DNA from: Escherichia coli
Lineage (GTDB): Bacteria; Pseudomonadota; Gammaproteobacteria; Enterobacterales; Enterobacteriaceae
Assembly (NCBI RefSeq): GCF_041248615.1
Contig: NZ_CP158426.1
Strand: one strand, 5' to 3'
Length of the DNA stretch: 64,000 nt
A program made the translations under genes and the position numbers. The notes beneath the pieces were generated by a model. That model saw nothing but the letters and a program-made list of their open reading frames with translations. It had not been told where the DNA came from and did no database searches. Shown here one piece after another: positions 2,526 to 41,111 of the stretch (positions are counted from its first letter, which is position 1; each line of letters opens with the position of its first letter).

Positions 2526-2560
2526 AAAAAACCCATAATTATTTTCTGTAATTATGGGTT
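2526..2560 (-). terminator. Rho-independent terminator downstream of entF (hairpin aaacccataattat...taattatgggttt with flanking T/A run)
   Basis: Perfect inverted repeat read directly from sequence just below the entF stop. Confidence 0.5.
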
Positions 2561-2576
2561 TATAGATAATGTTAAT

Positions 2577-5500
2577 TTATCTGTTTAGCGTTGCGCGAAT
2601 AATCGGCCCAATTTTTTCAAATGCCCCTGGAGAGATAATATCCACATGCGCACAATCCTGACGATAGATATCCAGCTCGGCTATCCACGGCGACCAGACG
2701 CGTTCGGGATTCATACCTTCCTGAAGCGTGCGTTCAGCAACAAACAGCGTCGCTTTACCGTCAAACGGTACGCTATGAGCAGTCGTCAGCAGGCGCACAG
2801 CATCAGCGTAGTTGCCTTCAATGGTGGTAAACAACTCCGTTGAAGTACTTCCCTGCTGTGCCGCCAGGAAGGCCTCGCGCTCGCGGTTAATCTCCGCCAG
2901 CACTTCCGGGTCCAGGCCATTAGCCTCTTTTTCCTGCCAGTTTTGCGTTTCTGGCGGCCAGGTATCCAGCAAGCCAAGAAATGCCACCTGTTCGCCACGG
3001 GCACGCAGCCGCGCCGCAATACCCTGCGCCAGCGTACCGCCCAGCGAATAACCCAGCAGGTAATAAGGGCCGTGCGGTTGATGCTCAAGTAACGTTGCCA
3101 GATGCGCTTCGCAGACTTCATCCAGATTTGCCGCGGTCTGCATGGGGCCATTGGGGCGCGGCGACTGAATGCCGATAATCGACCATTGTGGATCGAGATA
3201 ACGCGAGAGCACGCTGAACTGCCAGGCAAAACCGGACGCAGGATGGAAACAAAACAGCGTCGGGCCATTACCTTCACGCAACGGCAGAATGGTTTCGAAT
3301 CCCATGCGCCGGGAGCTGTCTTCTTCACCATCAATAATCGTTGCCAGTTTGGCGACAGTTGACGCGACCATCACCTGCCCCGGCGTCACCTGGCGGGTAA
3401 ACTGCCGACTTAACTGCGCAGCCAGTTTCATTGCCAGTAGCGAATGACCGCCAAGCGCGAAGAAATCAGCATCGGCATCCTGCACGTCACAACCCAGCAA
3501 CGACGAGAATGCCGCGGCGATAATCGTTTCACTGCCCGCTTTCGGCGCACGCCCCGGCGCTTGTGCCTTCAGTTCAGGCAACGGTAAGGCTTTGCGATCC
3601 AGCTTGCCGTTGGCGCTAAGCGGCAACTGCGGAAGTTGCAGCAGAACCACGGGCACCATATGCGGTGGCAATGTTTCGCGCAACTGCGCCTGCAATGCAG
3701 TGGTATCCAACGGCAGGCCTGATTGCGACACCAGATACCCAACCAACTGACGCGCATCGCCTCCCGTTGCGGCAGCCTGGTTAATAACGCAGGCGTGGGT
3801 CACGGCCTGTTCAACGTCCGGCAGCGCCTGCATCACGCGATCGATTTCGCCCAGTTCGATACGCTGCCCGCGAATTTTTAGCTGATCGTCACTGCGCCCG
3901 AGGTACTCCACCGCGCCGTTATCCAGCCAGCGGGCAACGTCTCCGGTACGGTACATCCGTTCGCCAGGGGCAAAAGGATCGGCAATAAAGCGGCTGGCGG
4001 TCAGATCGGGTCGTCCGAGATAGCCCTGCGCCAGTTGTATGCCAGTGAGATAGAGATCTCCCGCCACACCCGGCGGCACCGGATGCATCATCGCATCAAG
4101 AATACGCAGGCCCGTATTCCACACCGGATAACCAATCGGCACACTGCTGCCGCGCACCTGTGCCAGTTCCTCGCCAAAAGCCGGATACCAGCTCACATCC
4201 ACCGCCGCTTCCGTTGGGCCATATAGATTATGCAACGGCGCGCTGGTTAACTGTTGCCATTCGCGGCATAAATCAGCCGGCAAGGCTTCACCGCTACAGA
4301 AAACCTGTTTCAACGTCGCGCAACTCTGGCGAGCGGTTTCGGGCGTCAGCGATGCAACAAATGCCGCCAGCATCGACGGCACAAAGTGCGTGGTCGTTAC
4401 GCCATATTCGGCAAAGAATTGCTGCATCGCGAGCGGGTCGCGGTGCGCTTCCGGTTCAGCCATCACCAGTTTAGCCCCGGCAATAAACGGCCAGAAAAAC
4501 TCCCACACCGAGACATCAAAACTGCACGGCGTTTTTTGGGCAACGACATCTTCGCCTGTAAGCGGGTAGTGGTTTTGCATCCAAAGCAGGCGGTTAACGA
4601 TAGCCGTCTGCCCGACCATTACCCCTTTCGGCCTGCCGGTAGAGCCAGAGGTAAAGATGATATAAGCCGTGTGGTGCGGTTGTGAAAGTTTCAGCGGCGC
4701 ACTGCCCTGCGGTGTAAGCGGGGCGTTATAGCAAAGGCGGGTTAAATCTGGAACATCGGCAAAGCGCGGCAGTTGATCGTCGGTGGTGATTAACAGCGAC
4801 GGACGCGCATCTTCCAGCATCATTTTCAGGCGATCGTCCGGATAGCCGGTATCCAGCGGTAACCAGGCCGCACCAGCCTCAACAATTGCATGTAGCGCCA
4901 GAGTCAAAAAGACCGAGCGCGGTAGCGCCACCGCCACGCTGTCGCCTGGTTTAACGCCGCGCTCACTCAGCAGATTCGCCAGCGCCACCACCTGCTCGCG
5001 CATTTCCCGATAGCTGAACAGGTAACGCACATCTGCCAGCGCCGGAGCATCCGGTGTTTTTGCCGCTTGTTCCGCCACCAGCGCGCTCAGCGTGGTTTCT
5101 GGAATCTCAACCTGAGTGGCGTTGATCTGCGCCAGCTGCACATATTCACCTGGCAGCATAATATCGACATCGCCGCACAACAGCGCCGGATCCGCGGCGA
5201 ACTGGGCAATCAGCATTTTCAGGCGTTCAGCGTGTTGAATTAACGTTGGCTCATCGTAACGCTGTTTATTGGCGAGGATCTCAATACTCAAATCACCGTG
5301 TTCATCCGGGAACAGTGCCAGTTCAAGGTCATTAACCGGACCGGTTGCCAGGGTATGGGTTTGCGCCTGAACACCAGGAATATCCAGTTGGTAATCAAAT
5401 ACCTTGATATTGAGTACCGGACCAAACAGCGGTTCATCACCTGCCGCTCGCCCGCTGTCACGGACAATTTGTTCGGCATCGTAACGTTGATGACGACGCA

Positions 5501-6458
5501 TTTTTTTCAGTTGTGCTGCCAGTCGGGTTGCCAGTTGCGGCAGCGTTTCTTGCGCCGCAATGTGAATACCCAACGGCAAAACGTTGAGCACGGGTCCGGT
5601 AGCCGTCAGCGCCGCCGAGCCCAGTCGACGCATAAAGATAAATCCGGCAGCGTAGTCCATGCGGTTGCACAATCGCCCCAGCCACAAAGCCGCCAGCGCA
5701 AGGGCTAAATCGGTACGCTGCACACCTGAAAGTTGCGTAGCCAACTGGCGGAATTCCCCGTCGGTAAATTCCAGTTTCAGGCGTAGAATATCTGCCGAGG
5801 CGCTGCGCCCCGGTAAAGGTGCCGGAGAAAGTGACGCGGGCGGCGGCAATTGACGACGCTGTTCCGCCCAGAATGCCGCATCACGCTGCCAGGCTTCGCT
5901 TTCGCGGTATTGCTGGTACTCTTCCACTACATCAGCGAAAGGCGTAAACGGCGAAGCAGGCGTTGGTTCGCCACGCAGCCATGCGCAGTAAATATTGGCG
6001 ATCTGGCGGGTAATGGCTGGGAAACTGAAGCCATCGACCAGCAAATGGTGATAACGCTGATACCAGTACCAGCGGTTATCCACCACCTGTATCAACTGAT
6101 GAAAGACCAGTGGTTTACCGCTATCGACGCGCAGATCTTGTTGCAAATCTGCCTGCATTAATGCCCGCGCAGTACCGTGCGGATCAATGTTGGTTCGCAG
6201 GTCGATAATTTCTGGCAGTTCGAACGTCAGCGCATCATCGACCCACTGCCAGACTTCGCCGTTATCTTCCGTAAAACGCATCCGCAGCGTATCTGCTTGC
6301 GCTAATCCGGCAACCACCGCGCGGGCCAGTAATGGTGCATCAACCTCTCCGGTTAACTCAACGTAATGCGCCACGCTCCAGGCGGAGGGTAAATCCGACA
6401 GTTTTTCTGCCATCCAGATGCCGGGCTGTGCGGCGACCAAAGGTAAATGCTGGCTCAT
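2577..6458 (-). CDS. entF: Enterobactin non-ribosomal peptide synthetase component F (C-A-PCP-TE)
   Basis: 1293 aa from MSQHLPLVAAQ; condensation HHxxxDG (RYHHLLVDG), adenylation core FTSGSTGRPKG and YRTGD, carrier GGHSL, thioesterase GYSLGG; track ORF is extended upstream in frame. Confidence 0.97.
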   Translation of the reverse strand: MSQHLPLVAAQPGIWMAEKLSDLPSAWSVAHYVELTGEVDAPLLARAVVAGLAQADTLRMRFTEDNGEVWQWVDDALTFELPEIIDLRTNIDPHGTARALMQADLQQDLRVDSGKPLVFHQLIQVVDNRWYWYQRYHHLLVDGFSFPAITRQIANIYCAWLRGEPTPASPFTPFADVVEEYQQYRESEAWQRDAAFWAEQRRQLPPPASLSPAPLPGRSASADILRLKLEFTDGEFRQLATQLSGVQRTDLALALAALWLGRLCNRMDYAAGFIFMRRLGSAALTATGPVLNVLPLGIHIAAQETLPQLATRLAAQLKKMRRHQRYDAEQIVRDSGRAAGDEPLFGPVLNIKVFDYQLDIPGVQAQTHTLATGPVNDLELALFPDEHGDLSIEILANKQRYDEPTLIQHAERLKMLIAQFAADPALLCGDVDIMLPGEYVQLAQINATQVEIPETTLSALVAEQAAKTPDAPALADVRYLFSYREMREQVVALANLLSERGVKPGDSVAVALPRSVFLTLALHAIVEAGAAWLPLDTGYPDDRLKMMLEDARPSLLITTDDQLPRFADVPDLTRLCYNAPLTPQGSAPLKLSQPHHTAYIIFTSGSTGRPKGVMVGQTAIVNRLLWMQNHYPLTGEDVVAQKTPCSFDVSVWEFFWPFIAGAKLVMAEPEAHRDPLAMQQFFAEYGVTTTHFVPSMLAAFVASLTPETARQSCATLKQVFCSGEALPADLCREWQQLTSAPLHNLYGPTEAAVDVSWYPAFGEELAQVRGSSVPIGYPVWNTGLRILDAMMHPVPPGVAGDLYLTGIQLAQGYLGRPDLTASRFIADPFAPGERMYRTGDVARWLDNGAVEYLGRSDDQLKIRGQRIELGEIDRVMQALPDVEQAVTHACVINQAAATGGDARQLVGYLVSQSGLPLDTTALQAQLRETLPPHMVPVVLLQLPQLPLSANGKLDRKALPLPELKAQAPGRAPKAGSETIIAAAFSSLLGCDVQDADADFFALGGHSLLAMKLAAQLSRQFTRQVTPGQVMVASTVAKLATIIDGEEDSSRRMGFETILPLREGNGPTLFCFHPASGFAWQFSVLSRYLDPQWSIIGIQSPRPNGPMQTAANLDEVCEAHLATLLEHQPHGPYYLLGYSLGGTLAQGIAARLRARGEQVAFLGLLDTWPPETQNWQEKEANGLDPEVLAEINREREAFLAAQQGSTSTELFTTIEGNYADAVRLLTTAHSVPFDGKATLFVAERTLQEGMNPERVWSPWIAELDIYRQDCAHVDIISPGAFEKIGPIIRATLNR

Positions 6459-6673
6459 TGCGCCTCCTGCAACTGGGTGAAATTCGACGGTGTCAGAGTA
6501 CGCCAGTGGGCTTCCAGCCACTGCTGGCAGGACGCCTGTGACTGCGGCTGACACACAACGTCCCAGCCTGCCGGTAAGGCGCATTGTTGCGGCCACAGAC
6601 TGAATTGCCCCTGCGCATTGCGCAAAATGTAAAACGCTCCCTGCGGATCATCGAAGGGATTACTGAATGCCAT
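6455..6673 (-). CDS. ybdZ: MbtH-like protein, enterobactin synthesis accessory
   Basis: 72 aa from MAFSNPFDDPQGAFYILRN, MbtH-like Trp-rich sequence; overlaps entF start by 4 nt. Confidence 0.9.
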   Translation of the reverse strand: MAFSNPFDDPQGAFYILRNAQGQFSLWPQQCALPAGWDVVCQPQSQASCQQWLEAHWRTLTPSNFTQLQEAQ

Positions 6674-6675
6674 AT

Positions 6676-7878
6676 TCAACTCCTGTCATGGAAAAGTGGT
6701 TGCCAGAGGTCGATTAGCCCCTGCATCAAGCCACCGCGCCAACAAAGCGCATCATGTCCGCCGTCAACCTGACGCCAGAAAATGGATTCTTTTATAGGGT
6801 GTAATTGCGCATACAGCGCCTGATTGGCCCGCATGATCATCGGCTCGCGAATACCCGCTTCCAGCACAATGCGCAGACCTTCGGCGCTAACTTCACCAGC
6901 TTTAAGCTTTTCAAGTAACACGCCCTCTTGCTGCCCGCCCCGATGCGGCCACCAGTACGATCCTGACTGGCTTAATACACAGCCAAAGCGTTCAGGCCAG
7001 TGCAGTCCGGCATACAGCGCGGAAAGCCCACCAAAACTCTGCCCGGCGACTACGGTGCGATCGGCGCGATCGCTAAAAGGGGCAATAGCTTTCACCAGGG
7101 GTAATAACTCTTGCTGTACTGCCAGCCAGAAATCCGCATTACACGGCAGTTCGTGGGCGCGGTGCGTGGTGTCAATAGCGTCGATCAACACATACACGGC
7201 GGGAGGAAGTTGCTGACGATGGGTCAACGAAGTCAGCACAGGCCAGACAGGCATACTCTGCGCCCAAAATTCGCCATCGAGCAAAACTGCCAGCGGGCGT
7301 TCTCCTGCTGTTGCATCGCCGGTGGTAAAAATCCATACACGGCGTGAATTTTTCAACCGCTCACTTTTCCAGATAATTTCTTTGGCAGGCGTTTCTGGCG
7401 CTTGCGGACAATCCCATCCCGGTTGTAGGGGCGCTTGCGGCATTTCGAGTGCAGAAACAGCGTGCCCTCGCCCGCCTTTCCAGCTTTGTGGATTCAGCGG
7501 ATCGGCTATCGCCTGGGGCAATAGTGTTCGCCAGCCTTCACGTAATTCGAGGCGATCGGGGGATGGTACAGAAAAAATGTCATCGCGTTCGGTGGGAATA
7601 AAACAGTAGCTGCCGCGCCAGTTGGCATTAAGTTGTGTCGTCCACTGCCAGACGTTGGTACCTGCAATTCGCTGCATCGACTGGGGCTGGCTGTTCTGAT
7701 GGTGATCGGTCACACCAGTGATGTAGACCCATACGCGCTTTATCGTCGAGTATTCTTCAGAACCTTGGGGATCACGCCACCAGAAAGTGACCTCAAACAT
7801 TTCGTCATTCAGACGCTGCCATTCCGGGCCATGTTTCGACTGCCACCAGCTCTCACTTCCTACTTTTAACGCCGTCAC
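6676..7878 (-). CDS. fes: Enterochelin (ferric enterobactin) esterase
   Basis: 400 aa ORF, esterase GQSFGG serine motif; divergent from fepA. Confidence 0.95.
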   Translation of the reverse strand: MTALKVGSESWWQSKHGPEWQRLNDEMFEVTFWWRDPQGSEEYSTIKRVWVYITGVTDHHQNSQPQSMQRIAGTNVWQWTTQLNANWRGSYCFIPTERDDIFSVPSPDRLELREGWRTLLPQAIADPLNPQSWKGGRGHAVSALEMPQAPLQPGWDCPQAPETPAKEIIWKSERLKNSRRVWIFTTGDATAGERPLAVLLDGEFWAQSMPVWPVLTSLTHRQQLPPAVYVLIDAIDTTHRAHELPCNADFWLAVQQELLPLVKAIAPFSDRADRTVVAGQSFGGLSALYAGLHWPERFGCVLSQSGSYWWPHRGGQQEGVLLEKLKAGEVSAEGLRIVLEAGIREPMIMRANQALYAQLHPIKESIFWRQVDGGHDALCWRGGLMQGLIDLWQPLFHDRS

Positions 7879-7910: not shown

Positions 7911-7968
7911 ATTGATTGCAGAAATATATTGATAATATTATTGATAACTATTTGCATTTGCAATAGCG
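7911..7968. promoter_or_regulatory. Divergent fes/fepA promoter region with overlapping Fur-box-like sequences (attgataatattattgataactatttgcatttgcaat)
   Basis: GATAAT/ATTATC hexamer repeats characteristic of Fur boxes in the fes-fepA intergenic region. Confidence 0.55.
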
Positions 7969-10400: not shown

Positions 10401-10499
10401 GCCGGATGCGGCGTGAACGCCTTATCCGGCCTACAAAAATCTTGCCAATTCAATATATTGCAGGACCACGTAGGCCTGATAAGCGTAGCGCATCAGGCA
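10401..10499. repeat. REP/BIME element: two inverted REP units (gccggatgcggcgtgaacgccttatccggcctac and gtaggcctgataagcgtagcgcatcaggca)
   Basis: Canonical enterobacterial REP palindromes in the fepA-entD intergenic region. Confidence 0.6.
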
Positions 10500-11175: not shown

Positions 11176-11207
11176 TTCGCCCGCAGCCAATGCTGACTGC
11201 GGGCGAA
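11176..11207. terminator. Hairpin (ttcgcccgcag...ctgcgggcgaa) between convergent entD and hok; likely bidirectional terminator
   Basis: Inverted repeat read from sequence; a near-identical hairpin recurs at about 11676-11708 in the second hok copy. Confidence 0.4.
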
Positions 11208-11277
11208 AGTGTAAAGCAGGTGCCTTACTACTCTGACCTGACAACCGGATATGCGGGGATTACTCCCCGCACAACGG

Positions 11278-11430
11278 CTACTTCTTCGGTTCGTAAGCGA
11301 GAACAGCCTTAAACTCAATATTACGTTCCTTCACCGTAAACTCACACAGCGAGTCTCCGACCAGAAGCGTAAATCCCAGCACCGTTAAACACAGCACTAT
11401 GACTGCCACAAGGGCATATTTCGTCAGCAT
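11278..11430 (-). CDS. hokE: Hok-family small membrane toxin (type I toxin-antitoxin), copy 1
   Basis: 50 aa [50 protein letters not shown]; single TM helix plus conserved Hok C-terminus. Confidence 0.85.
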
Positions 11431-11575
11431 GTTTATATTGCCTCCATGCGAAGAAGGGACTACCATCCGAGTTGTTGAGGTTCGGAGTGGCAGCCCCAGG
11501 ATTGATAGAAATATCTCCTGGGGCTTCATCTTTCCAGACCTCAGAGTTAACCTGAAACCGGAAAGCTTCAGGCAC
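11342..11575 (-). CDS. mok-like overlapping reading frame of hok copy 1
   Basis: 77-aa ORF starting upstream of hok and ending inside it in a different frame, as in canonical hok/mok/sok loci. Confidence 0.4.
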
Positions 11576-11780
11576 CCGCTGTTATCTTACCCTTCCTTAG
11601 CAAAATAACTGTTTATTTATACAGCAAGTCCTGTTTCGGACTTCTGTTGGCAACACTCGTTATTGCTCGTAAAACGAAATCGCCCGCAGCCATCACTGAC
11701 CACGGGCGAAAGTGTAAAGCAGGTGCCTTACCACCCTGACCTGACAACCGGATATGCGGGGATTACTCCCCGCACAACGG

Positions 11781-11933
11781 CTACTTCTTCGGTTCGTAAG
11801 CGAGAACAGCCTTAAACTCAATATTACGTTCCTTCACCGTAAACTCACACAGCGAGTCTCCGACTAGAAGCGTAAATCCCAGTACCGTCAAACACAGCAC
11901 TATGACTGCCACAAGGGCATATTTCGTCAGCAT
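11781..11933 (-). CDS. hokE: Hok-family small membrane toxin, copy 2 (identical 50-aa protein; in this copy the upstream mok-like frame is fused in frame, track ORF 11781-12077)
   Basis: Same 50-aa Hok sequence; 98-aa extended ORF in track. Confidence 0.85.
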
Positions 11934-12364
11934 GTTTATATTGCCTCCATGCGAAGAAGGGACTACCATCCAAATTGTCTGGTTTGGAGTGGCAGCCCCA
12001 GGGTTGATAGAAATATCTCCTGGGGCTTCATCTTTCCAGACCTCAGAGTTAACCTGAAACCGGAAAGCTTCAGGCACCCGCCGTTATCTTACCCTTCTTC
12101 AGCAAAATAGCTGTTTATTTATACAGTGAGTCCTGTTTCGGACTTCTCACTCCTCATTTGATCAACTGAAGCTGAACCCGTTTTTTTCTGCATGCCTCAA
12201 TCGTCAAAATTCTTCGCCACCAGTCCGCACTGCCATAACTTGTCATATTGCAAAATGTAGCCAATTTGCTTCAGTCACCATCATCAAAAAAAGAAACATT
12301 CCAGAACTTCCGCATCTCGCCCAGTCGCTCCCACTTCTATACTGAATAGAAAACGCCAACATAA

Positions 12365-29443: not shown

Positions 29444-32400
29444 ATGAGTGAAGGACCAGGCGGGCCACAGGGAGCGACCGCAGGCGGTACGCTGGCAATG
29501 CGAATGCTGTCACAGCAGGCGATGGTCGCCAGCCAGATGAAACGGGCAGCCAACGACAAAGCCATTGCACAGATGCTGGCATCAAAAAAGTCCGGCCCCC
29601 CCGCCGCCAGGCTGGGCGATGAAATTCAGCACAAGAGTTTTTTGGGGGCGCTGGCAGGGGCCGTGCTGGGGGCGATAGTGACCATCGCAGAAGGTTGCCT
29701 GATTATGGCCGCCTGTGCCACCGGCCCTTATGCGCTGGTTCTGGTGCCTGCGCTGATGTATGCCAGCTATAAGGCGAGTGATTATGTGGAGGAGAAACAG
29801 AACCAGCTTGAATCATGGATAAACAGCTTTTGTGACACGGACGGCGCCATCAATACCGGTTCTGAAAATGTAAACATTAACGGAAAGCCCGCTGCCAGGG
29901 CCGCCGTCACCCTTCCCCCTCCTCCCCCACCTGGAGCAATACCTGAAATCCCACAGGGGGAACCCTCATGGGGTGATATTGCCACTGACCTGCTTGAATC
30001 GGCAGCGGAAAAAGCAGTACCACTGGCGAAGGCCTGGGGGAACGCTGTTATCACCCTGACGGACAGCAATGCCGGTTTTATGGATCGCGTCAGCGCCGGC
30101 GCATCGCTTCTGTTTCCCGCCGGTCCGGTATTAATGGAGTTTGCCACCATGGTGGGCGGGCGTGGCGAAATCAAAAAAGACGTGGATTTCCCGGAAGCCG
30201 GTGAGGACACGGCGCTCTGCGACAAGGAGAACAAACCGCCGAGGATAGCCCAGGGCAGCAGCAACGTCTTTATCAACAATCAGCCTGCTGCACGCAAGGG
30301 GGACAAACTGGAGTGCAGTGCGGCAATCGTGGAAGGTTCGCCGGACGTCTTTATTGGGGGTGAGCAGGTCACCTATCTGGATATCCAGCCGGAGTTCCCG
30401 CCGTGGCAGAGAATGATCCTGGGGGGAATAACGATAGCCAGCTATCTTCTGCCGCCAGCGGGACTGCTGGGAAAACTGAAGAATCTGGCGAGACTCGGCA
30501 AACTGGGAAACCTGCTGGGGAAAAGCGGGAAGCTGCTGGGGGCAAAGCTCGGCGCGTTGCTGGGGAAAACAGGTAAGTCGTTAAAAAGTATTGCCAATAA
30601 AGTCATCAGATGGGTAACAGATCCTGTCGATCCGGTAACCGGCGCATACTGCGACGAACGTACCGACTTTACGCTGGGCCAGACACTCCCCCTCTCCTTC
30701 ACCCGTTTCCACAGTTCTGTACTGCCACTGCATGGCCTGACGGGCGTGGGCTGGAGCGACTCCTGGAGCGAATACGCCTGGGTGCGTGAACAGGGAAACC
30801 GGGTGGATATCATCAGCCAGGGAACCACGCTGAGATTTGCCTTCGACGGTGACAGTGATACGGCGGTTAACCCGTATCACGCCCAGTACATTCTGCGCCG
30901 CCGCGATGATTACCTGGAGCTGTTCGACAGGGATGCACTGAGCAGCCGCTTCTTTTATGACGCCTTTCCGGGAATGCGTCTGCGCCACCCGGTGACTGAC
31001 GATACCAGCGATGACCGTCTGGCACACAGCCCCGCAGACCGGATGTACATGCTGGGCGGGATGAGCGACACCGCCAGCAACCGCATCACGTTTGAGCGCG
31101 ACAGCCAGTACCGGATCACAGGTGTCAGTCACACTGACGGGATCCGGCTTAAACTGACGTACCACGCCAGCGGCTACCTGAAAGCCATTCACCGCACGGA
31201 TAACGGCATACAGACGCTGGCGACCTACGAACAGGATGCGCGGGGGCGGCTGACAGAAGCGGATGCGCGGCTGGACTACCACCTGTTTTATGAGTACGAC
31301 GCTGCGGACCGGATCATCCGCTGGTCCGATAACGACCAGACGTGGAGCCGTTTCACCTACGATGAACAGGGCCGGTGCGTGAATGTCACCGGGGCGGAGG
31401 GCTATTACAACGCCACGCTGGACTATGGTGACGGCTGCACCACCGTGACGGACGGCAAGGGCATTCACCGTTATTACTATGATCCTGACGGCAATATTCT
31501 GCGGGAAGCAGCGCCGGACGGCAGCACCACCATGTATGAATGGGATGAATTCCATCACCTGCTGGCCCGTCACTCCCCTGCCGGGCGGGTGGAGAAATTT
31601 GAATACAACGCCGCACACGGTCAGTTAAGCCGTTACACGGCGGCAGACGGCGCGGAGTGGCAGTACCGCTATGATGAGCGCGGCCTGCTCAGCAACATCA
31701 CCGACCCTGCCGGGCAGACGTGGACACAGCAGTGTGATGAACGCGGCCTGCCGGTAAGTCTGGTGTCGCCACAGGGCGAAGAGACCCGGCTGGCATACAC
31801 CGCTCAGGGGCTGCTGTCGGGAATATTCCGCCAGGATGAACGGCGTCTGGGCATAGAGTACGACCACCACAACCGGCCGGAAACACTCACCGACGTGATG
31901 GGCCGCGAACACCACACCGAATACAGTGGTCACGACCTGCCGGTGAAGATGCGCGGCCCCGGCGGTCAGTCAGTGCGCTTACAGTGGCAGCAGCACCATA
32001 AACTGAGTGGCCTTGAGCGCACTGGCACCGGCGCGGAAGGATTCCGCTACGACCGCCACGGCAACCTGCTGGCCTGGACGGACGGTAACGGTGTTGTCTG
32101 GACAATGGAATACGGCCCGTTTGATTTGCCGGTGGCGCGAACGGACGGTGAAGGCCACCGCTGGCAGTACCGCTACGATAAAGACACGCTGCAACTGACA
32201 GAAGTCATTAACCCGCAGGGTGAGTCATATCTTTATGTTCTGGATAACTGCGGCCGGGTGACGGAAGAGCATGACTGGGGCGGCGTGGTCTGGCGTTACC
32301 GCTATGACGCCGATGGCCTGTGTACCGCCAGGGTCAACGGCCTGGAGGAAACCATCCTCTACAGCCGGGACGCCGCAGGCCGCCTGGCAGAAGTCATCAC

Positions 32401-34303
32401 GCCGGAAGGCAAAACGCAGTATGCCTATGACAAATCCGGCAGGCTGACGGGTATCTTCAGCCCGGACGGCACATCACAGCGCACCGGCTATGACGAACGC
32501 GGGCGGGTGAATGTCACCACTCAGGGCCGACGGGCCATTGAATACCACTACCCCGACGAACACACCGTCATCCGCTGTATCCTGCCACCGGAAGATGAAC
32601 GCGACAGACACCCCGGTGAATCCCTGCTGAAAACCACGTACCGCTACAACGCCGCCGGAGAACTGACGGAGGTCATTCTGCCGGGGGATGAGACGCTGAC
32701 GTTCAGCCGTGATGAGGCAGGACGTGAAGTGCTCCGGCACAGTAACCGGGGTTTTGCCTGTGAACAGGGCTGGAATGCAGCCGGTCAGCCTGTCAGTCAG
32801 CGCGCCGGACTTTTCCCGGCAGAAGCCACATGGGGCGGGCTGCTCCCCTCACGGGTACGGGAGTACCGTTACGACAGCGCGGGTAATGTGTCAGGCGTCA
32901 CCAGCCGGGAAGATTACGGACGGGAAACACGGCGGGAATACCGGCTGGACCGGAACGGCCAGGTCACGGCGGTGACAGCCTCAGGCACCGGGCTGGGCTA
33001 TGGCGAAGGCGATGAGTCCTATGGCTATGACAGCTGCGGCTACCTGAAGGCGCAGTCTGCGGGCTGGCACCGGATAAGTGAAGAGACTGACCAGTATGCC
33101 GGAGGCCACCGGCTGAAACAGGCCGGAAACACGCAGTATGACTATGACGCCGCAGGCCGGATGGTCAGCCGCACCAGACACCGTGACGGCTATCGCCCGG
33201 AAACAGAGCGGTTCCGGTGGGACAGCCGTGACCAGCTGACCGGGTATTGCAGCGCACAGGGTGAGCAGTGGGAATACCGCCACGACGCCAGCGGCAGACG
33301 AACAGAGAAACGCTGCGACCGGAAGAAAATCCGCATCACGTACCTGTGGGACGGCGACAGTATTGCGGAAATCCGGGAATACCGCGATGATAAACTGTAC
33401 AGCGTACGGCACCTGGTGTTTAACGGCTTTGAGCTGATAAGCCAGCAGTTCAGCCGGGTACGGCAGGCGCATCCGTCGGTGGCCCCGCAGTGGGTGACAC
33501 GGACGAATCATGCGGTGAGCGACCTGACGGGCCGTCCGCTGATGCTCTTTAACAGTGAAGGTAAAACCGTCTGGCGACCGGGACAGACCAGCCTGTGGGG
33601 GCTGGCACTCAGCCTGCCCGCGGACACCGGCTACCCGGACCCGCGCGGGGAGCTGGACGCGGAAGCCGCCCCCGGCCTGCTGTATGCGGGACAGTGGCAG
33701 GATGCGGAATCGGGGCTGTGCTATAACCGGTTCCGGTACTACGAGCCGGAAACCGGGATGTACCTGGTGAGTGATCCGCTGGGGTTGCAGGGAGGGGAAC
33801 AGACTTACCGGTATGTGCCTAATCCGTGTGGGTATGTTGATCCGCTGGGGCTGGCAAAAACTTCTGTTCCCGTATCAATAGTAGAACCAAAAAAAATCAC
33901 TGGTAACTTTAAAACAATTCGAGAAAAATTAAGGCTTGCCAGGAATGGTGATGTTTCTGCACAAGCCGAAATTGCATACGCAAAATATATGCGTAGTTTG
34001 GGAAAGGATGTGCATTTCAATACACCTCCGAATCGCTCAGTATCAATGGCAGATTTTACAATTGATGGAATCCAGGTTGATACAAAATTATTGAGTGGTA
34101 TAGGCGGAAATGCTGCAAAAAATGTTAACAAGGGAGTTGGCCAGGTGGGAGATAATGGTATCGTCCTGGTAATTAGAAATTCTAATTCCAAAAATACACT
34201 TGAGGAATTTCATGAATTCTTTGGAAACTTCAAACCTAATAATTCAACAGTTCGAGTTGAAGTGATTGATCAATCCGTTTTAGAACCTTTTTGGAGATTT
34301 TAA
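29444..34303 (+). CDS. rhs: prePAAR/PAAR-Rhs polymorphic toxin (full length) with variable C-terminal toxin domain CT1
   Basis: 1619 aa; prePAAR motif AARLGDEIQH (29603-29632), two TM helices, PAAR-like region, many YD repeats, demarcation PxxxxDPxGL (PCGYVDPLGL), then AT-rich 149-aa CT. Confidence 0.95.
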   Translation: MSEGPGGPQGATAGGTLAMRMLSQQAMVASQMKRAANDKAIAQMLASKKSGPPAARLGDEIQHKSFLGALAGAVLGAIVTIAEGCLIMAACATGPYALVLVPALMYASYKASDYVEEKQNQLESWINSFCDTDGAINTGSENVNINGKPAARAAVTLPPPPPPGAIPEIPQGEPSWGDIATDLLESAAEKAVPLAKAWGNAVITLTDSNAGFMDRVSAGASLLFPAGPVLMEFATMVGGRGEIKKDVDFPEAGEDTALCDKENKPPRIAQGSSNVFINNQPAARKGDKLECSAAIVEGSPDVFIGGEQVTYLDIQPEFPPWQRMILGGITIASYLLPPAGLLGKLKNLARLGKLGNLLGKSGKLLGAKLGALLGKTGKSLKSIANKVIRWVTDPVDPVTGAYCDERTDFTLGQTLPLSFTRFHSSVLPLHGLTGVGWSDSWSEYAWVREQGNRVDIISQGTTLRFAFDGDSDTAVNPYHAQYILRRRDDYLELFDRDALSSRFFYDAFPGMRLRHPVTDDTSDDRLAHSPADRMYMLGGMSDTASNRITFERDSQYRITGVSHTDGIRLKLTYHASGYLKAIHRTDNGIQTLATYEQDARGRLTEADARLDYHLFYEYDAADRIIRWSDNDQTWSRFTYDEQGRCVNVTGAEGYYNATLDYGDGCTTVTDGKGIHRYYYDPDGNILREAAPDGSTTMYEWDEFHHLLARHSPAGRVEKFEYNAAHGQLSRYTAADGAEWQYRYDERGLLSNITDPAGQTWTQQCDERGLPVSLVSPQGEETRLAYTAQGLLSGIFRQDERRLGIEYDHHNRPETLTDVMGREHHTEYSGHDLPVKMRGPGGQSVRLQWQQHHKLSGLERTGTGAEGFRYDRHGNLLAWTDGNGVVWTMEYGPFDLPVARTDGEGHRWQYRYDKDTLQLTEVINPQGESYLYVLDNCGRVTEEHDWGGVVWRYRYDADGLCTARVNGLEETILYSRDAAGRLAEVITPEGKTQYAYDKSGRLTGIFSPDGTSQRTGYDERGRVNVTTQGRRAIEYHYPDEHTVIRCILPPEDERDRHPGESLLKTTYRYNAAGELTEVILPGDETLTFSRDEAGREVLRHSNRGFACEQGWNAAGQPVSQRAGLFPAEATWGGLLPSRVREYRYDSAGNVSGVTSREDYGRETRREYRLDRNGQVTAVTASGTGLGYGEGDESYGYDSCGYLKAQSAGWHRISEETDQYAGGHRLKQAGNTQYDYDAAGRMVSRTRHRDGYRPETERFRWDSRDQLTGYCSAQGEQWEYRHDASGRRTEKRCDRKKIRITYLWDGDSIAEIREYRDDKLYSVRHLVFNGFELISQQFSRVRQAHPSVAPQWVTRTNHAVSDLTGRPLMLFNSEGKTVWRPGQTSLWGLALSLPADTGYPDPRGELDAEAAPGLLYAGQWQDAESGLCYNRFRYYEPETGMYLVSDPLGLQGGEQTYRYVPNPCGYVDPLGLAKTSVPVSIVEPKKITGNFKTIREKLRLARNGDVSAQAEIAYAKYMRSLGKDVHFNTPPNRSVSMADFTIDGIQVDTKLLSGIGGNAAKNVNKGVGQVGDNGIVLVIRNSNSKNTLEEFHEFFGNFKPNNSTVRVEVIDQSVLEPFWRF

Positions 34304-34307
34304 AAAT

Positions 34308-34784
34308 ATGATCACCAAATCAAGTATACTCATAGAGTATAAAGATAAAAGTAAACTAACCGAAAGTATTTATAAGTTTGTAAATGCTCTAGATATTGAC
34401 TTTTCGATATTAAAATATGACTACTTTGATGTAAATGAGTATAAAAAAAATATTACTTATGACACATCTTTTATTGACAAAGATGCAGAATATATTGAAT
34501 TATTAGCGAAGATTGATTTTTCTTATGAAGTTGATTTCGGCACATCAACAACATCGATTGAAAGCAAGTATCTTCCATCTCTAACTGATTTCATCGCTCA
34601 ATCACTATCACAACAATTAAATTGTAACATAATAACCAGCTTTAAACCATTAAGTGGAGATGAGTTTTGCCCAATAACATATTTTTCAAAAGGTAAAGAA
34701 GTTATCAATTTTACGACATTTAATTCAAATTGTTGGGATGGGGTATACTGGGTAAAAAAAAGGAGGCAAACAAATATCCGCTAA
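34308..34784 (+). CDS. Putative cognate immunity protein for Rhs CT1
   Basis: 158 aa, AT-rich ORF 5 nt after the rhs stop, in the usual immunity position. Confidence 0.6.
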   Translation: MITKSSILIEYKDKSKLTESIYKFVNALDIDFSILKYDYFDVNEYKKNITYDTSFIDKDAEYIELLAKIDFSYEVDFGTSTTSIESKYLPSLTDFIAQSLSQQLNCNIITSFKPLSGDEFCPITYFSKGKEVINFTTFNSNCWDGVYWVKKRRQTNIR

Positions 34785-34902
34785 CGTAGTTTTTCAATAG
34801 CTACACCATGTCACGTAACATGATGCCTGGATATTAACAGAAAGACAGAAGTGGACTCAGCGGTGAGATGAACGCAGCCTGAGTCTGAAGTACGACCTGC
34901 CG

Positions 34903-37233
34903 GTGAAGATGCGCGGCCCCGGCGGTCAGTCAGTGCGGTTGCAGTGGCAGCAGCACCATAAACTGAGTGGCCTTGAGCGCACTGGCACCGGCGCGGAAGG
35001 GTTCAGCTATGACCGCCACGGCAACCTGCTGGCCTGGACGGACGGCAATGGTGTTGTCTGGACAATGGAGTACGGCCCGTTCGATTTGCCGGTGGCGCGA
35101 ACGGACGGTGAAGGCCACCGCTGGCAGTACCGCTATGATAAAGACACGCTGCAACTGACAGAAGTCATTAACCCGCAGGGTGAGTCATATCTTTATGTTC
35201 TGGATAACTGCGGCCGGGTGACGGAAGAGCATGACTGGGGCGGCGTGGTCTGGCGTTACCGCTATGACGCCGATGGCCTGTGTACCGCCAGGGTCAACGG
35301 CCTGGAGGAAACCATCCTCTACAGCCGGGACGACGCAGGCCGCCTGGCAGAAGTCATCACGCCGGAAGGCAAAACGCAGTATGCGTATGACAAATCCGGC
35401 AGGCTGACGGGTATCTTCAGCCCGGACGGCACATCACAGCGCACCGGCTATGACGAACGCGGGCGGGTGAATGTCACCACTCAGGGCCGACGGGCCATTG
35501 AATACCACTACCCCGATGAACACACCGTCATCCGCTGTATCCTGCCACCGGAAGATGAACGCGACAGACACCCCGGTGAATCCCTGCTGAAAACCACGTA
35601 CCGCTACAACGCAGCCGGAGAACTGGCAGAGGTCATCCTGCCGGAGGATGAGACGCTGACGTTCAGCCGTGATGAGGCAGGACGTGAAGTGCTCCGGCAC
35701 AGTAACCGGGGTTTTGCCTGTGAGCAGGGCTGGAATGCAGCCGGTCAGCTTACCAGCCAGCGCGCCGGACTTTTCCCGGCAGAAGCCACATGGGGCGGGC
35801 TGCTCCCCTCACGGGTACGGGAGTACCGTTACGACAGCGCGGGTAATGTGTCAGGCGTCACCAGCCGGGAAGATTACGGACGGGAAACACGGCGGGAATA
35901 CCGGCTGGACCGGAACGGCCAGGTCACGGCGGTGACAGCCTCAGGCACCGGGCTGGGCTATGGCGAAGGCGATGAGTCCTATGGCTATGACAGCTGCGGC
36001 TACCTGAAGGCGCAGTCTGCGGGCTGGCACCGGATAAGTGAAGAGACTGACCAGTATGCCGGAGGCCACCGGCTGAAACAGGCCGGAAACACGCAGTATG
36101 ACTATGACGCCGCAGGCCGGATGGTCAGCCGCACCAGACACCGTGACGGCTATCGCCCGGAAACAGAGCGGTTCCGGTGGGACAGCCGTGACCAGCTGAC
36201 CGGGTATTGCAGCGCACAGGGTGAGCAGTGGGAATACCGCCACGACGCCAGCGGCAGACGAACAGAGAAACGCTGCGACCGGAAGAAAATCCGCATCACG
36301 TACCTGTGGGACGGCGACAGTATTGCGGAAATCCGGGAATACCGCGATGATAAACTGTACAGCGTACGGCACCTGGTGTTTAACGGCTTTGAGCTGATAA
36401 GCCAGCAGTTCAGCCGGGTACGGCAGGCGCATCCGTCGGTGGCCCCGCAGTGGGTGACACGGACGAATCATGCGGTGAGCGACCTGACGGGCCGTCCGCT
36501 GATGCTCTTTAACAGTGAAGGTAAAACCGTCTGGCGACCGGGACAGACCAGCCTGTGGGGGCTGGCACTCAGCCTGCCCGCGGACACCGGCTACCCGGAC
36601 CCGCGCGGGGAACTGGACGCGGAAGCCGACCCCGGCCTGCTGTATGCAGGACAGTGGCAGGATGCGGAATCCGGGCTGTGCTATAACCGGTTCCGGTATT
36701 ACGAGCCGGAAACAGGGATGTACCTGGTGAGTGATCCGCTGGGGTTGCTGGGGGGTGAGCAGACTTACCGGTATGTGCCGAATCCGTGTGGGTATGTTGA
36801 TCCTTTGGGATTAGCAACATGTCCCATAATCAGACAACGGGTGCTGGCTAACCTTGAAGCCAGTCGGGCAGCAAGGGCTGCATCTAATTTTGGTAAGAAA
36901 AATATCTATGATTTTATCAAGGCAACTCAATCTGCTATCCCTGGCACCTCTATCCCAAAATCTTTTGAGATTATAACTGCTAATGGTACTTTCTGGGTAC
37001 ACCCAAATGCTACAAAACATATGGCTGAATATTTGACTCGGAACGGTCTCTCACATTCAACTTCTGTAGAGAGCCAAATAATGTTAACAAGTTTTCACGA
37101 AGCTGTAAGTTTGGCTAGTGCTCAAGGTATAAAGTATGAAGAAATGATGAATGTTGGCGGCTGGGAACTAGTATTTAGTCAAGCTAAATCTGACTCGGCT
37201 TTATCAGTTATTAAACATGCTCTTTATAAATGA
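34903..37233 (+). CDS. rhs: Orphan 5'-truncated rhs fragment (core repeat plus distinct C-terminal toxin CT2)
   Basis: 776-aa ORF with GTG start; 34892-36813 nearly identical to main rhs 31932-33853; PxxxxDPxGL followed by unrelated 139-aa CT. Confidence 0.85.
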   Translation: MKMRGPGGQSVRLQWQQHHKLSGLERTGTGAEGFSYDRHGNLLAWTDGNGVVWTMEYGPFDLPVARTDGEGHRWQYRYDKDTLQLTEVINPQGESYLYVLDNCGRVTEEHDWGGVVWRYRYDADGLCTARVNGLEETILYSRDDAGRLAEVITPEGKTQYAYDKSGRLTGIFSPDGTSQRTGYDERGRVNVTTQGRRAIEYHYPDEHTVIRCILPPEDERDRHPGESLLKTTYRYNAAGELAEVILPEDETLTFSRDEAGREVLRHSNRGFACEQGWNAAGQLTSQRAGLFPAEATWGGLLPSRVREYRYDSAGNVSGVTSREDYGRETRREYRLDRNGQVTAVTASGTGLGYGEGDESYGYDSCGYLKAQSAGWHRISEETDQYAGGHRLKQAGNTQYDYDAAGRMVSRTRHRDGYRPETERFRWDSRDQLTGYCSAQGEQWEYRHDASGRRTEKRCDRKKIRITYLWDGDSIAEIREYRDDKLYSVRHLVFNGFELISQQFSRVRQAHPSVAPQWVTRTNHAVSDLTGRPLMLFNSEGKTVWRPGQTSLWGLALSLPADTGYPDPRGELDAEADPGLLYAGQWQDAESGLCYNRFRYYEPETGMYLVSDPLGLLGGEQTYRYVPNPCGYVDPLGLATCPIIRQRVLANLEASRAARAASNFGKKNIYDFIKATQSAIPGTSIPKSFEIITANGTFWVHPNATKHMAEYLTRNGLSHSTSVESQIMLTSFHEAVSLASAQGIKYEEMMNVGGWELVFSQAKSDSALSVIKHALYK

Positions 37234-37763
37234 CGATTATGCTTACATTAGAAAATGAAACAAACTACAAAGATGTTGTTGTTAATATAGATGAATTTGT
37301 ACCTTTTGATATAACTTTTGGAAAGGGGAGCGAACAGTGTTTGTACTGGAGAGGCGGCAATGGTAAAAGTTCTTTGGTTGAAGTTGGGTTAAATATGTAC
37401 AGCGGAGAAGTAAGTAACATCACACTAGCAAATATCGATTCAGGTGAAATTAACATTACAGATGAGATGTTAGCCAACAACCTTCCTGAAATACAAGGGT
37501 CTGTTATATTTCAGACAAGCGAGTGGCTTAATAAAGACATTTCCGAATACTCAAACAGATTTATTGATGATTTTGATTGCAATATCAAGTTAATAATTGG
37601 TAGTAATTACATTAAATTATTATTTAAAAAAGCAACAAATCCCATTTGTTATATCATTAATAGGAATATAAGATTTGGTTTTTCTTTGAGTAGGGAACTT
37701 TCGACATTGGAAATATTAGACCTCAATCAAGAAAAATTAGATATTCTAAAGTTATTTAAATAG
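37230..37763 (+). CDS. Putative cognate immunity protein for orphan CT2
   Basis: 177 aa AT-rich ORF whose ATG overlaps the rhs-CT2 stop (ATGA). Confidence 0.6.
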   Translation: MTIMLTLENETNYKDVVVNIDEFVPFDITFGKGSEQCLYWRGGNGKSSLVEVGLNMYSGEVSNITLANIDSGEINITDEMLANNLPEIQGSVIFQTSEWLNKDISEYSNRFIDDFDCNIKLIIGSNYIKLLFKKATNPICYIINRNIRFGFSLSRELSTLEILDLNQEKLDILKLFK

Positions 37764-38242
37764 TTTTAGTGTTTGAAACTTACCGAGAGATGATAGCTAT
37801 GAATGAATACAAAAACATCCATCTTGGAGGAAACAATGGAATGTTAATCCATTAAAAAACATACTTCAATATCTTTAGTGAAGAAAGAGTTGTATGAAAG
37901 AAATATATCTTATGTGAGCGACATGATGCATGCTAATTATATTATTGGCCGGAAATTTTATGATGATAGCAAAAAGGAGGGGTTATTTCTGTAAGAATGG
38001 ATATACCCGCAGGGTTTGAACCAGACATTTATTTGTTGAAGTCTAAGATCCAAATGGAAGCATTTATATCCCTCAGATATTATGCGTTGACGGGTTGATA
38101 AAGATACTTTTAGAGGGTTAATAAATGGAGAACGTATAATAAATCTCTTAAACAAACTATAACCTGTACTAATGAAAAAAATGGGAATAGATAAGTTAAT
38201 AGCCTATTCTAAAAATGGTAAAGTGGTTTTACTTCCAAAATA

Positions 38243-38686
38243 ATGGAGTTTAGTATGAAAATCGAAGCTAATTCCCTTACTCATCCCTATGACTACAACG
38301 CCTCACTGAACAATTATTTACATTATTTTGAGAATTTCTCTCGTAATGACTGGAATAAAGATTCATGTGGAGGATATTTTACTTTTAGAGATGATGACAG
38401 AGAGTGTGTTTTGTTTTTTGTGAATTATGGTGATAATTTTTCATTGCGCTATGATTGTACACAAAGTTCTGATGGAATAGTGTCATGCTGGTATAGTAAC
38501 CATGAAGATGATAAAATGAATATCATCGTCGATGCTGATACAGAACAATTTATCCCTTTAGGTTCTTGCTTACCTCCTGATATTACTTTATCAGTAATAA
38601 AAGATTTTTTCAAAAATCCTTTAGAGAAATCAAAAAAAGTAAAATGGATGAATGCAGATGACATTGACTGGTCATCTGTGTATTAA
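38243..38686 (+). CDS. Hypothetical protein, possible orphan immunity protein
   Basis: 147 aa AT-rich ORF inside the Rhs island with no adjacent toxin; no recognised motif. Confidence 0.4.
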   Translation: MEFSMKIEANSLTHPYDYNASLNNYLHYFENFSRNDWNKDSCGGYFTFRDDDRECVLFFVNYGDNFSLRYDCTQSSDGIVSCWYSNHEDDKMNIIVDADTEQFIPLGSCLPPDITLSVIKDFFKNPLEKSKKVKWMNADDIDWSSVY

Positions 38687-38911
38687 AGTTGGATTGGATA
38701 ATTATCTGTTTCAAAAATCATTAAATTTAGAACCTATCTGTTCAACAGAGCTGCCTTGAACAGCAGGTTCTTTTATGATGTCCAGGAGCGAATATGCCTG
38801 TGATGTCTGGCACTCAGCATCTGACTGACCTGGACTACTGATCCTACTCACACAGGGAGCTAGACCTGGAAGCAACCTACTGTAAGCAGTGCAGTAGCAG
38901 CCCACCTCACA

Positions 38912-38950
38912 TCAGTCCTTGCAAGGTGTGGGCCTTTGTGATCTTGCTCT
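38912..38950. mobile_element. Degenerate remnant resembling the right terminus of an H-repeat/ISAs1-family element
   Basis: About 31 of 40 nt identical to the right end of the complete H-repeat copy at 44492-44531. Confidence 0.3.
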
Positions 38951-39297
38951 GTATTGCTGAGATCCTCAGGAAGGACTCGAAATTTAATCAGGAAGGCCGT
39001 TGCTAAAAATCAAAAAATAAATTCAAGAGCAATTTCTAAAACTTTTGAATCTACTGTATCGGATGAGGTTTTCACTCCTTTCCAAAAGGTGAGTTTTCAA
39101 GCATTCAAGTTTCTGTTATGACCAAAACTTCACCATTTAACACTAATCCGAGTATTATGTTACCATGAAGAAAAAAGATATTAGATTTGCAATATCCATT
39201 AACTCCAACTCAAGTAAGATAGAATTAATGGAAAAATTAAAAACATAATCCCAGGGCTTATTGAAATAACTCCCAGTGCATTAAGAGAAGAAAAAAC

Positions 39298-39513: not shown

Positions 39514-39577
39514 TGACCTCTACATATATCCTCAGTTCGTGGCTGGTATTACATGATCTGACAGGGAAAGATCGTAG

Positions 39578-39960: not shown

Positions 39961-40003
39961 CAGTTCCACCAAGATTACCTAAACCCAAATGAGGTAAAAG
40001 ATA

Positions 40004-40372: not shown

Positions 40373-40401
40373 TTTGAAACAAAAGTAAAAAACCGCCTTC
40401 A

Positions 40402-41100: not shown

Positions 41101-41111
41101 GGAGTGATAGT

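What the first reader, a model, noticed from the sequence alone, without database searches (positions are those of the whole stretch)
6455..6679. Compact translational coupling in the fes-ybdZ-entF operon
The fes stop is followed within a few nucleotides by the ybdZ start, and the ybdZ 3' end overlaps the entF start by 4 nt. The MbtH-like protein YbdZ is thus tightly coupled to its NRPS partner EntF. This is a conserved but clear example of operon compaction.
Basis: seen in the sequence. Interest (0 to 1): 0.2.

Follow-up and report, generated by a model that had tools for sequence, protein, structure and literature searches.

The report
Tight fes-ybdZ-entF gene junctions
Three neighbouring E. 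coli iron-scavenging genes are packed almost end to end, with the small helper gene ybdZ overlapping its partner enzyme gene entF by four bases; this is real but is the commonest gene-junction layout in E. coli and is already tabulated in the literature.

Summary
On the minus strand, fes ends at TGA 6678-6676. ybdZ starts at ATG 6673-6671, a 2-nt gap, and ends at TGA 6457-6455. entF starts at ATG 6458-6456, a 4-nt ATGA overlap. RefSeq annotates K-12 and every other E. coli record checked the same way, including the most divergent hit. Huber et al. 2023 already list these pairs as +2 and -4 in a supplementary table.

The finding's upper coordinate, 6679, is a non-conserved TTG. The real start is the ATG, which is invariant in 39 of 39 related loci.

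Conservation is only partial. Across about 20 Enterobacteriaceae genera, the ybdZ-entF distance always lies between -8 and +10 nt. It is exactly -4 in 23 of 39 loci. The +2 fes-ybdZ gap occurs only in Escherichia, which lacks a 16-25-nt segment carrying the fes stop codon of its relatives; elsewhere the gap is 10-30 nt.

Translational coupling of entF to ybdZ by termination-reinitiation is plausible. The junction has an ATGA overlap, an AGGAGG Shine-Dalgarno 4 nt upstream, a solved YbdZ structure deposited with EntF, and reported 1:1 stoichiometry. I found no paper that tested it, and one of five native E. coli -4 pairs tested by reporter assay was not coupled. This is ordinary, known biology.

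The parts
6676..7878 (-). fes CDS (enterochelin esterase, 400 aa); stop TGA at 6678-6676
   Evidence: ORF list and translation. Pfam Enterochelin_N 1e-41 and Esterase 6e-21. RefSeq annotation at identical coordinates.
6680..6684 (-). Shine-Dalgarno AGGAG for ybdZ, inside the last fes codons, 6 nt before the ATG
   Evidence: Read from the sequence. GGAG sits at the same position in 39/39 related loci. The site has a low opening energy, 6.4 kcal/mol, the 4th percentile of the in-locus background.
6674..6675 (-). 2-nt spacer (AT) between the fes stop and the ybdZ start
   Evidence: The 61-mer across this junction is identical in 5316 of 5426 complete E. coli genomes.
6455..6673 (-). ybdZ CDS (MbtH-like protein, 72 aa), ATG 6673-6671, stop TGA 6457-6455
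   Evidence: Pfam PF03621 at 77.1 bits against a cutoff of 27. PDB 5JA1 chain B at 7e-47, with query residues 1-72 aligned to chain residues 3-74. RefSeq annotation.
6677..6679 (-). Upstream in-frame TTG that defines the finding's upper coordinate; not the real start
   Evidence: An in-frame TTG 6 nt upstream of the ATG is present only in Escherichia and Citrobacter, 7/39 loci. The ATG is present in 39/39.
6463..6468 (-). Shine-Dalgarno AGGAGG for entF, encoded in the ybdZ C-terminal codons (Q-E-A), 4 nt before the ATG
   Evidence: Read from the sequence. GGAG-type motifs are visible upstream of the entF start in most related loci.
6455..6458 (-). ATGA overlap: entF start ATG (6458-6456) and ybdZ stop TGA (6457-6455)
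   Evidence: Listed as -4 in PMC10666635 supplementary file 3.
2577..6458 (-). entF CDS (NRPS, 1293 aa: condensation, adenylation, carrier, thioesterase)
   Evidence: Pfam Condensation match starts at residue 2 of the protein and position 2 of the profile; AMP-binding, PP-binding and Thioesterase also match. RefSeq annotation.
2529..2561 (-). Terminator-like hairpin (13-bp stem plus T-run) 16 nt after the entF stop
   Evidence: Consensus scan. No promoter-like or terminator-like site was found between fes and entF in the same scan.

Best explanation
This is the standard E. coli enterobactin transcription unit fes-ybdZ-entF(-fepE), transcribed as one iron-regulated mRNA from the fepA-fes divergent region.

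ybdZ has its own strong, structurally open ribosome-binding site, conserved in all relatives, so it most likely initiates mainly de novo. The 2-nt gap after fes arose in the Escherichia lineage: a 16-25-nt segment that carries the fes stop codon in related genera is absent, and the Fes reading frame runs through the ybdZ Shine-Dalgarno. That gap permits some termination-reinitiation but is probably not required.

entF starts in an ATGA overlap with the ybdZ stop, 4 nt after an AGGAGG. A ribosome terminating on ybdZ is therefore positioned on the entF start. It most likely reinitiates there, and it also unwinds a start region of only average accessibility. This would tie EntF synthesis to YbdZ synthesis and make YbdZ on the same mRNA just before the NRPS it binds 1:1.

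Shown here: gene identities, geometry, Shine-Dalgarno motifs, conservation pattern and a solved YbdZ structure. Inferred: that reinitiation, rather than independent initiation, supplies most EntF translation, and that this serves stoichiometry or assembly.
For: - Geometry and annotation.
- No promoter-like or terminator-like site between fes and entF. The unit is named fes-ybdZ-entF-fepE in PMC8910356, with similar RNA fold changes for fes and ybdZ, -5.04 and -4.96.
- The ybdZ-entF distance is within -8..+10 nt in 39/39 loci, although four different junction designs occur: -4, -8, +1 and +9/+10. This is the window that PMC10666635 treats as predictive of termination-reinitiation.
- 4 of 5 native E. 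coli -4 pairs were coupled in reporter assays (PMC6728339).
- Short distances are enriched 4.5-fold for heteromeric complexes in E. coli.
- YbdZ is in PDB 5JA1. 1:1 MbtH-like protein to adenylation-domain stoichiometry is reported (PMC7593251 citing Felnagle 2010).
- Opening energy of the entF start region is average in -4 loci (median 12.4 kcal/mol, 36th percentile) but lower in +9/+10 loci (9.15 kcal/mol, 8th percentile; Mann-Whitney p=0.004). This fits upstream-ribosome dependence where the genes overlap.
- The ybdZ start region is open in nearly all loci, median 4.5th percentile.
- The segment absent from Escherichia is shown in alignment A1.
Against: - There is no direct measurement for this gene pair.
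- The entF Shine-Dalgarno is a perfect AGGAGG, and the surrounding 121 nt fold less stably than shuffles (z=+2.05). De novo initiation could therefore supply much or all of EntF translation, as found for bioBF and about 40% of menDH.
- Eight loci have a +9/+10 gap with the stop inside TAAGGAG, a class that Huber et al. consider likely to initiate independently. Strict coupling is therefore not universally required for the pathway.
- The accessibility contrast between junction classes is not corrected for shared ancestry.
- Most short-distance pairs in E. coli (69.6%) do not encode complexes, so tight spacing by itself carries little functional information.
Confidence: 0.6

Rival explanations
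1. The compaction is neutral and translation is independent. The overlaps are just the commonest outcome of deletion-biased genome streamlining within operons. entF and ybdZ each initiate de novo on their own strong Shine-Dalgarno sites, and any coordination between YbdZ and EntF comes from co-transcription alone.
For: - -4 is the modal junction in E. coli.
- 69.6% of short-distance pairs encode no complex.
- The bioBF -4 pair is uncoupled.
- entF has a perfect AGGAGG and a region that folds less stably than shuffles (z=+2.05).
- The fes-ybdZ +2 gap joins two proteins not known to interact, and traces to a segment absent from one lineage.
- Junction spacing has been remodelled repeatedly between genera.
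Against: - Across four different junction designs the ybdZ-entF distance never leaves -8..+10 nt in 39 loci, whereas fes-ybdZ drifts from 2 to 30 nt. This suggests stronger constraint on the MbtH-NRPS junction.
- entF start regions in -4 loci are no more open than average coding sequence.
- 4 of 5 tested -4 pairs were coupled.
Confidence: 0.33
2. Coupling works by structure unmasking. The entF ribosome-binding site is sequestered in mRNA secondary structure, and only a ribosome translating ybdZ opens it. Reinitiation by the same ribosome plays no part.
For: entF start-region opening energy in -4 loci is near the coding-sequence background, with some loci high: L014 19.7 and L018 18.6 kcal/mol.
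Against: - In this window the 121-nt junction region folds worse than 197 of 200 shuffles. The centroid structure is almost empty, and no stable hairpin covers the Shine-Dalgarno or the AUG.
- Opening energy is 10.8 kcal/mol, the 27th percentile, so the site is not sequestered.
- No conserved structure was sought or found.
Confidence: 0.05
3. A programmed -1 frameshift at the end of ybdZ produces a YbdZ-EntF fusion protein, mimicking the natural MbtH-adenylation domain fusions.
For: - entF is in the -1 frame relative to ybdZ.
- An AGGAGG lies just upstream.
- Fused MbtH-NRPS proteins exist (PDB 4GR4, 6N8E).
Against: - There is no slippery heptamer in ...CAG TTG CAG GAG GCG CAA TGA.
- YbdZ is deposited in PDB 5JA1 as its own 74-residue chain.
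- The junction varies between -8 and +10 nt, and therefore in frame relationship, across genera.
Confidence: 0.01

Closest known systems
E. coli K-12 MG1655 fes-ybdZ-entF-fepE operon (b0585, b4511, b0586, b0587)
   Same: - Same genes in the same order, with an identical +2 and -4 geometry.
- Identical junction-1 sequence.
- Junction 2 differs only by point substitutions, and YbdZ differs at 3 of 72 residues.
   Different: Nothing structural. The window comes from another E. coli lineage, 100% identical over 601 nt to isolate 362.
Native E. coli -4 overlapping pairs tested for termination-reinitiation (hyfHI, astDB, ydbH-ynbE, menDH; PMC6728339)
   Same: Co-directional pairs with an ATGA stop/start overlap and a Shine-Dalgarno inside the upstream gene. 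Several encode interacting proteins.
   Different: Those pairs have reporter-assay evidence and ybdZ-entF has none. The bioBF pair has the same geometry but was uncoupled.
MbtH-adenylation domain fusion proteins (SlgN1, PDB 4GR4/4GR5; ObiF1, PDB 6N8E)
   Same: An MbtH-like module is physically tied to its NRPS partner, which guarantees 1:1 co-production.
   Different: In those proteins the link is a covalent fusion in one reading frame. Here there are two separate polypeptides from overlapping frames.
+9 to +12 nt E. coli junction class with the Shine-Dalgarno in the spacer (PMC10666635)
   Same: Eight of the related ybdZ-entF loci have this design, with TAAGGAG and a +9/+10 gap.
   Different: The window has the -4 design. 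The +10 class is thought to initiate independently.

Membership tests
MbtH-like protein family (Pfam PF03621) | Sequence match to the family profile above the curated threshold | tested here: met
   77.1 bits against a gathering score of 27, E=6.8e-22, covering residues 4-54 and profile positions 2-52 of 53.
MbtH-like protein family (Pfam PF03621) | Signature residues (own knowledge of the motif: N-x-E-x-Q-x-S-x-W-P ... P-x-G-W ... W-x-x-x-x-P) | tested here: met
   Read from the translation: N20-A-Q-G-Q-F-S-L-W28-P29 (Q replaces E at position 22), P35-A-G-W38, and W58-R-T-L-T-P63.
MbtH-like protein family (Pfam PF03621) | Encoded beside, and binding, an NRPS adenylation domain | tested here: met
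   The adjacent entF has an AMP-binding domain. YbdZ is chain B of PDB 5JA1. That the partner chain in 5JA1 is EntF is my own knowledge.
Enterobactin fes-ybdZ-entF-fepE operon of E. coli | Gene order and near-identity to reference E. coli | tested here: met
   5412 of 5426 complete genomes hold the 601-nt region at 95% identity or more, annotated fes | ybdZ | entF. The K-12 layout is identical.
Enterobactin fes-ybdZ-entF-fepE operon of E. coli | Fur-regulated promoter upstream of fes | tested here: inconclusive
   The 19-mer Fur-box consensus found no match at 3 mismatches or fewer anywhere in the window. An AT-rich region is visible at about 7915-7950. Fur regulation is taken from the literature (PMC8910356).
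Translationally coupled gene pair (termination-reinitiation class) | Co-directional genes on one transcript with a distance of -8 to +10 nt | tested here: met
   Distances are -4 (ybdZ-entF) and +2 (fes-ybdZ). No promoter-like or terminator-like site lies between the genes. The operon is named in the literature.
Translationally coupled gene pair (termination-reinitiation class) | Shine-Dalgarno for the downstream gene inside the upstream gene | tested here: met
   AGGAGG at 6468-6463 and AGGAG at 6684-6680.
Translationally coupled gene pair (termination-reinitiation class) | Translation of the downstream gene depends on ribosomes reaching the upstream stop codon | not testable with these tools
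   This needs a reporter or ribosome-profiling experiment. No paper testing this pair was found.

The most novel reading that the evidence does not exclude
The MbtH-NRPS junction specifically is under selection for co-translational hand-over. Across enterobacterial genera the ybdZ-entF junction has been rebuilt at least four ways but never leaves -8..+10 nt. Loci with the ATGA overlap have entF start sites of only average accessibility, while gapped loci have open ones. Together these suggest two interchangeable solutions, reinitiation or an open independent site, that both keep YbdZ made on the same mRNA immediately before EntF, so the chaperone-like MbtH protein is on hand as the adenylation domain emerges.
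Probability: 0.25. Interest if true: 0.3.

Novelty: already known. Interest (0 to 1): 0.08.

Why it matters
It matters little as a discovery. The junction distances are in the reference annotation and in a published table, and the layout is the modal one for E. coli operons.

It has modest value as a worked example:
- It shows that 'conserved compaction' needs checking junction by junction. One junction is held tight across genera, while the other is a single-lineage indel.
- It marks ybdZ-entF as a convenient, untested candidate for studying whether coupling serves the assembly of an MbtH-like protein with its NRPS. That bears on heterologous expression of NRPS pathways, where MbtH dosage affects solubility and activity.

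Tried and rejected
- **Literature on coupling at this pair.** Four searches found no experimental test.
- **Key older papers.** Felnagle 2010 (PMC2974439), Pettis & McIntosh 1987 (PMC213723) and Li 2014 (PMC4006352) are not held.
- **Expression ratios.** The supplements of the acid-stress ribosome-profiling paper hold no ybdZ, entF or fes rows. No YbdZ:EntF synthesis ratio could be obtained.
- **MbtH-NRPS pairs across phyla.** The supplementary files of PMC10666635 as held (some were cut when stored) contain no MbtH or COG3251 entry.
- **Rfam.** Nothing at or near the junctions.
- **Promoter and terminator scan.** Nothing between fes and entF, and overall counts were no higher than in shuffles.
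- **Fur-box consensus.** No match at 3 mismatches or fewer.
- **TTG 6679 as the ybdZ start.** Rejected: it is present in only 7/39 loci, against the ATG in 39/39.
- **GTG 6596 as the entF start** (the mechanical 1339-aa ORF). Rejected: the Pfam Condensation domain begins at residue 2 of the 1293-aa form, and orthologues start within a few codons of that ATG.
- **Frameshift fusion.** Rejected because there is no slippery site.
- **Coverage limits.** The cross-genus scan used exact peptide words, so Salmonella and Klebsiella were not sampled.
Full report
**What is in the sequence.** The feature lies on the minus strand.
- The fes reading frame (400 aa; Pfam Enterochelin_N and Esterase) runs 7878..6676 and ends ...TTC CAT GAC AGG AGT TGA, with TGA at 6678-6676.
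- Two bases later (AT) comes ATG 6673-6671, which opens a 72-codon frame ending CAG GAG GCG CAA TGA, with TGA at 6457-6455. Its product matches Pfam MbtH (PF03621) at 77.1 bits against a threshold of 27. It is the protein deposited as YbdZ in PDB 5JA1 chain B (E=7e-47).
- The entF ATG is 6458-6456, so start and stop interlock as ATGA, a 4-nt overlap.
- EntF (1293 aa) has condensation, adenylation, carrier and thioesterase domains. The condensation match starts at residue 2.
- Each downstream gene has a Shine-Dalgarno inside the gene before it: AGGAG 6684-6680, 6 nt before the ybdZ ATG, and AGGAGG 6468-6463, 4 nt before the entF ATG.

**Agreement with annotation and with the E. coli population.**
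- RefSeq annotates a 100%-identical record at the same coordinates: entF 2577-6458, ybdZ 6455-6673, fes 6676-7878.
- K-12 MG1655 has the same +2/-4 geometry.
- The 601-nt region is present at 95% identity or more in 5412 of 5426 complete E. coli genomes.
- The 61-mer across the fes/ybdZ junction is identical in 5316 genomes.
- The 61-mer across ybdZ/entF carries a few point polymorphisms. Even the most divergent genome (strain N96, 91.7%) is annotated +2/-4.
- The window's YbdZ differs from K-12 at three residues.

**A correction to the coordinates.** The finding's range 6455-6679 is the mechanical ORF from TTG 6679-6677, not the gene. Three results favour the ATG:
- In 39 related loci the ATG is invariant, with GGAG 6-8 nt upstream, while an in-frame TTG at -6 occurs only in Escherichia and Citrobacter.
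- The Pfam domain boundary fits the ATG.
- The crystallised chain begins at that Met, plus two extra residues.

**Is it unusual?** No.
- Huber et al. 2023 (PMC10666635) report that the -4 ATGA overlap is the most common configuration of co-directional pairs in E. coli. 707 of 2,987 pairs lie between -8 and +6 nt.
- Their supplementary file 3 lists exactly these pairs: fes-ybdZ +2 and ybdZ-entF -4.
- The neighbouring fepD/fepG and fepG/fepC pairs are also -4.

**Conservation across genera.** One scan of species-representative genomes with YbdZ returned 41 loci. Of these, 39 were complete, from about 20 Enterobacteriaceae genera, and all had fes, ybdZ and entF in that order. I located the fes stop, the ybdZ start and stop, and the entF start in each locus by homology.

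| Junction | Distance (nt) | Loci |
|---|---|---|
| ybdZ-entF | -4 | 23 |
| ybdZ-entF | -8 | 7 |
| ybdZ-entF | +1 | 1 |
| ybdZ-entF | +9/+10 (ybdZ stop inside a TAAGGAG Shine-Dalgarno) | 8 |
| fes-ybdZ | +2 (all five are Escherichia) | 5 |
| fes-ybdZ | 10-30 | 34 |

The ybdZ-entF junction therefore always lies within -8..+10 nt, despite at least four designs. Huber et al. treat this window as predictive of termination-reinitiation.

Alignment A1 explains the +2 gap. Escherichia lacks a 16-25-nt segment that in all other genera carries the fes stop codon and a spacer. As a result the Fes frame reads on through the conserved TTCCAYGACAGGAGTTGA block, giving the tail ...LWQPLFHDRS*, and stops in the TGA just before the ybdZ ATG. 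'Conserved compaction' is thus true for the MbtH-NRPS junction in kind but not in exact form. For the fes junction it is not true.

**Mechanism.**
- No promoter-like or terminator-like site lies between fes and entF.
- The unit is treated as fes-ybdZ-entF-fepE in the literature, with near-equal RNA responses for fes and ybdZ (PMC8910356).
- For ybdZ, the opening energy of the start region is low in the window (6.4 kcal/mol, 4th percentile of in-locus background) and in nearly all relatives (median 4.5th percentile). This fits an independently initiating site. Reinitiation across the 2-nt gap is possible, since a +2 gap cost 5-70% of reinitiation in three tested pairs, but it is probably dispensable.
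- For entF, the ATGA overlap and the AGGAGG place a terminating ribosome on the start codon.
- In reporter assays 4 of 5 native E. coli -4 pairs were coupled and one (bioBF) was not (PMC6728339).
- The entF start region is not sequestered. The 121-nt region folds worse than 197 of 200 shuffles, and its opening energy is 10.8 kcal/mol, the 27th percentile. A pure structure-unmasking model is therefore unlikely, and some de novo initiation is plausible.
- Across loci, entF start regions are about average in the -4 class (median 12.4 kcal/mol) and more open in the +9/+10 class (9.15 kcal/mol; Mann-Whitney p=0.004). This fits reliance on the upstream ribosome where the genes overlap. The loci are related and the test is uncorrected for that, so it is only suggestive.

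**Why coupling would make sense.**
- MbtH-like proteins act at 1:1 with adenylation domains, and YbdZ enhances EntF solubility and activity (PMC7593251 citing Felnagle 2010).
- A YbdZ structure is solved, PDB 5JA1.
- Short-distance pairs are enriched 4.5-fold for heteromeric complexes in E. coli.
- Some systems fuse the MbtH module to the NRPS outright: PDB 4GR4 and 6N8E.
- These are arguments from analogy. No paper testing this pair was found, and no synthesis-rate data could be retrieved.

**Verdict.** The feature is ordinary and already known. The only small additions from this check are:
- the corrected start codon;
- the Escherichia-specific origin of the +2 gap;
- the finding that the ybdZ-entF junction is held within -8..+10 nt across genera while its exact form changes.

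Noticed in passing
window 2529-2561 (-): A terminator-like hairpin (13-bp stem, T-run) sits 16 nt after the entF stop, in the 214-nt gap before fepE. [quoted passage not shown]
   Followed up: partly
window 11177-12147 (-): A tandem duplication of the hokE/sok toxin-antitoxin locus. There are two Rfam sok hits (11422-11577 and 11925-12079) and two annotated hokE genes, about 503 nt apart and 95% identical. K-12 carries IS186 at this position instead.
   Followed up: no
window 10436-10477 (+): An Rfam ES036 (CssrF) sRNA match above the gathering score, in the fepA-entD spacer.
   Followed up: no
window 30461-42970: The window carries about 10.7 kb more than the otherwise 99.99%-identical record NZ_OW967178.1. 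The extra sequence is in the VgrG/PAAR/Rhs area and has internal repeats, which suggests a variable array of Rhs toxin tips.
   Followed up: no
L010 (whole), L030 3001-3198: Likely contamination or mislabelling in public assemblies. A 223-nt scaffold of 'Lactobacillus johnsonii ATCC 33200' encodes a 94%-identical E. coli YbdZ. A contig labelled 'Chryseobacterium sp. 18061' carries an enterobacterial fes-ybdZ-entF locus that matches 'Citrobacter sp. 18056'.
   Followed up: no
PMC10666635 supplementary file 3: The published table flags ybdZ-entF as 'CMPLX not' (no complex), although YbdZ is in PDB 5JA1, which to my knowledge is the EntF-YbdZ complex. This pair would therefore add to their enrichment of complexes among overlapping genes.
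   Followed up: partly
window 6300-6900: Among complete E. coli genomes, the fes-ybdZ-entF junction region occurs at two places on plasmid records and twice in a few genomes.
   Followed up: no
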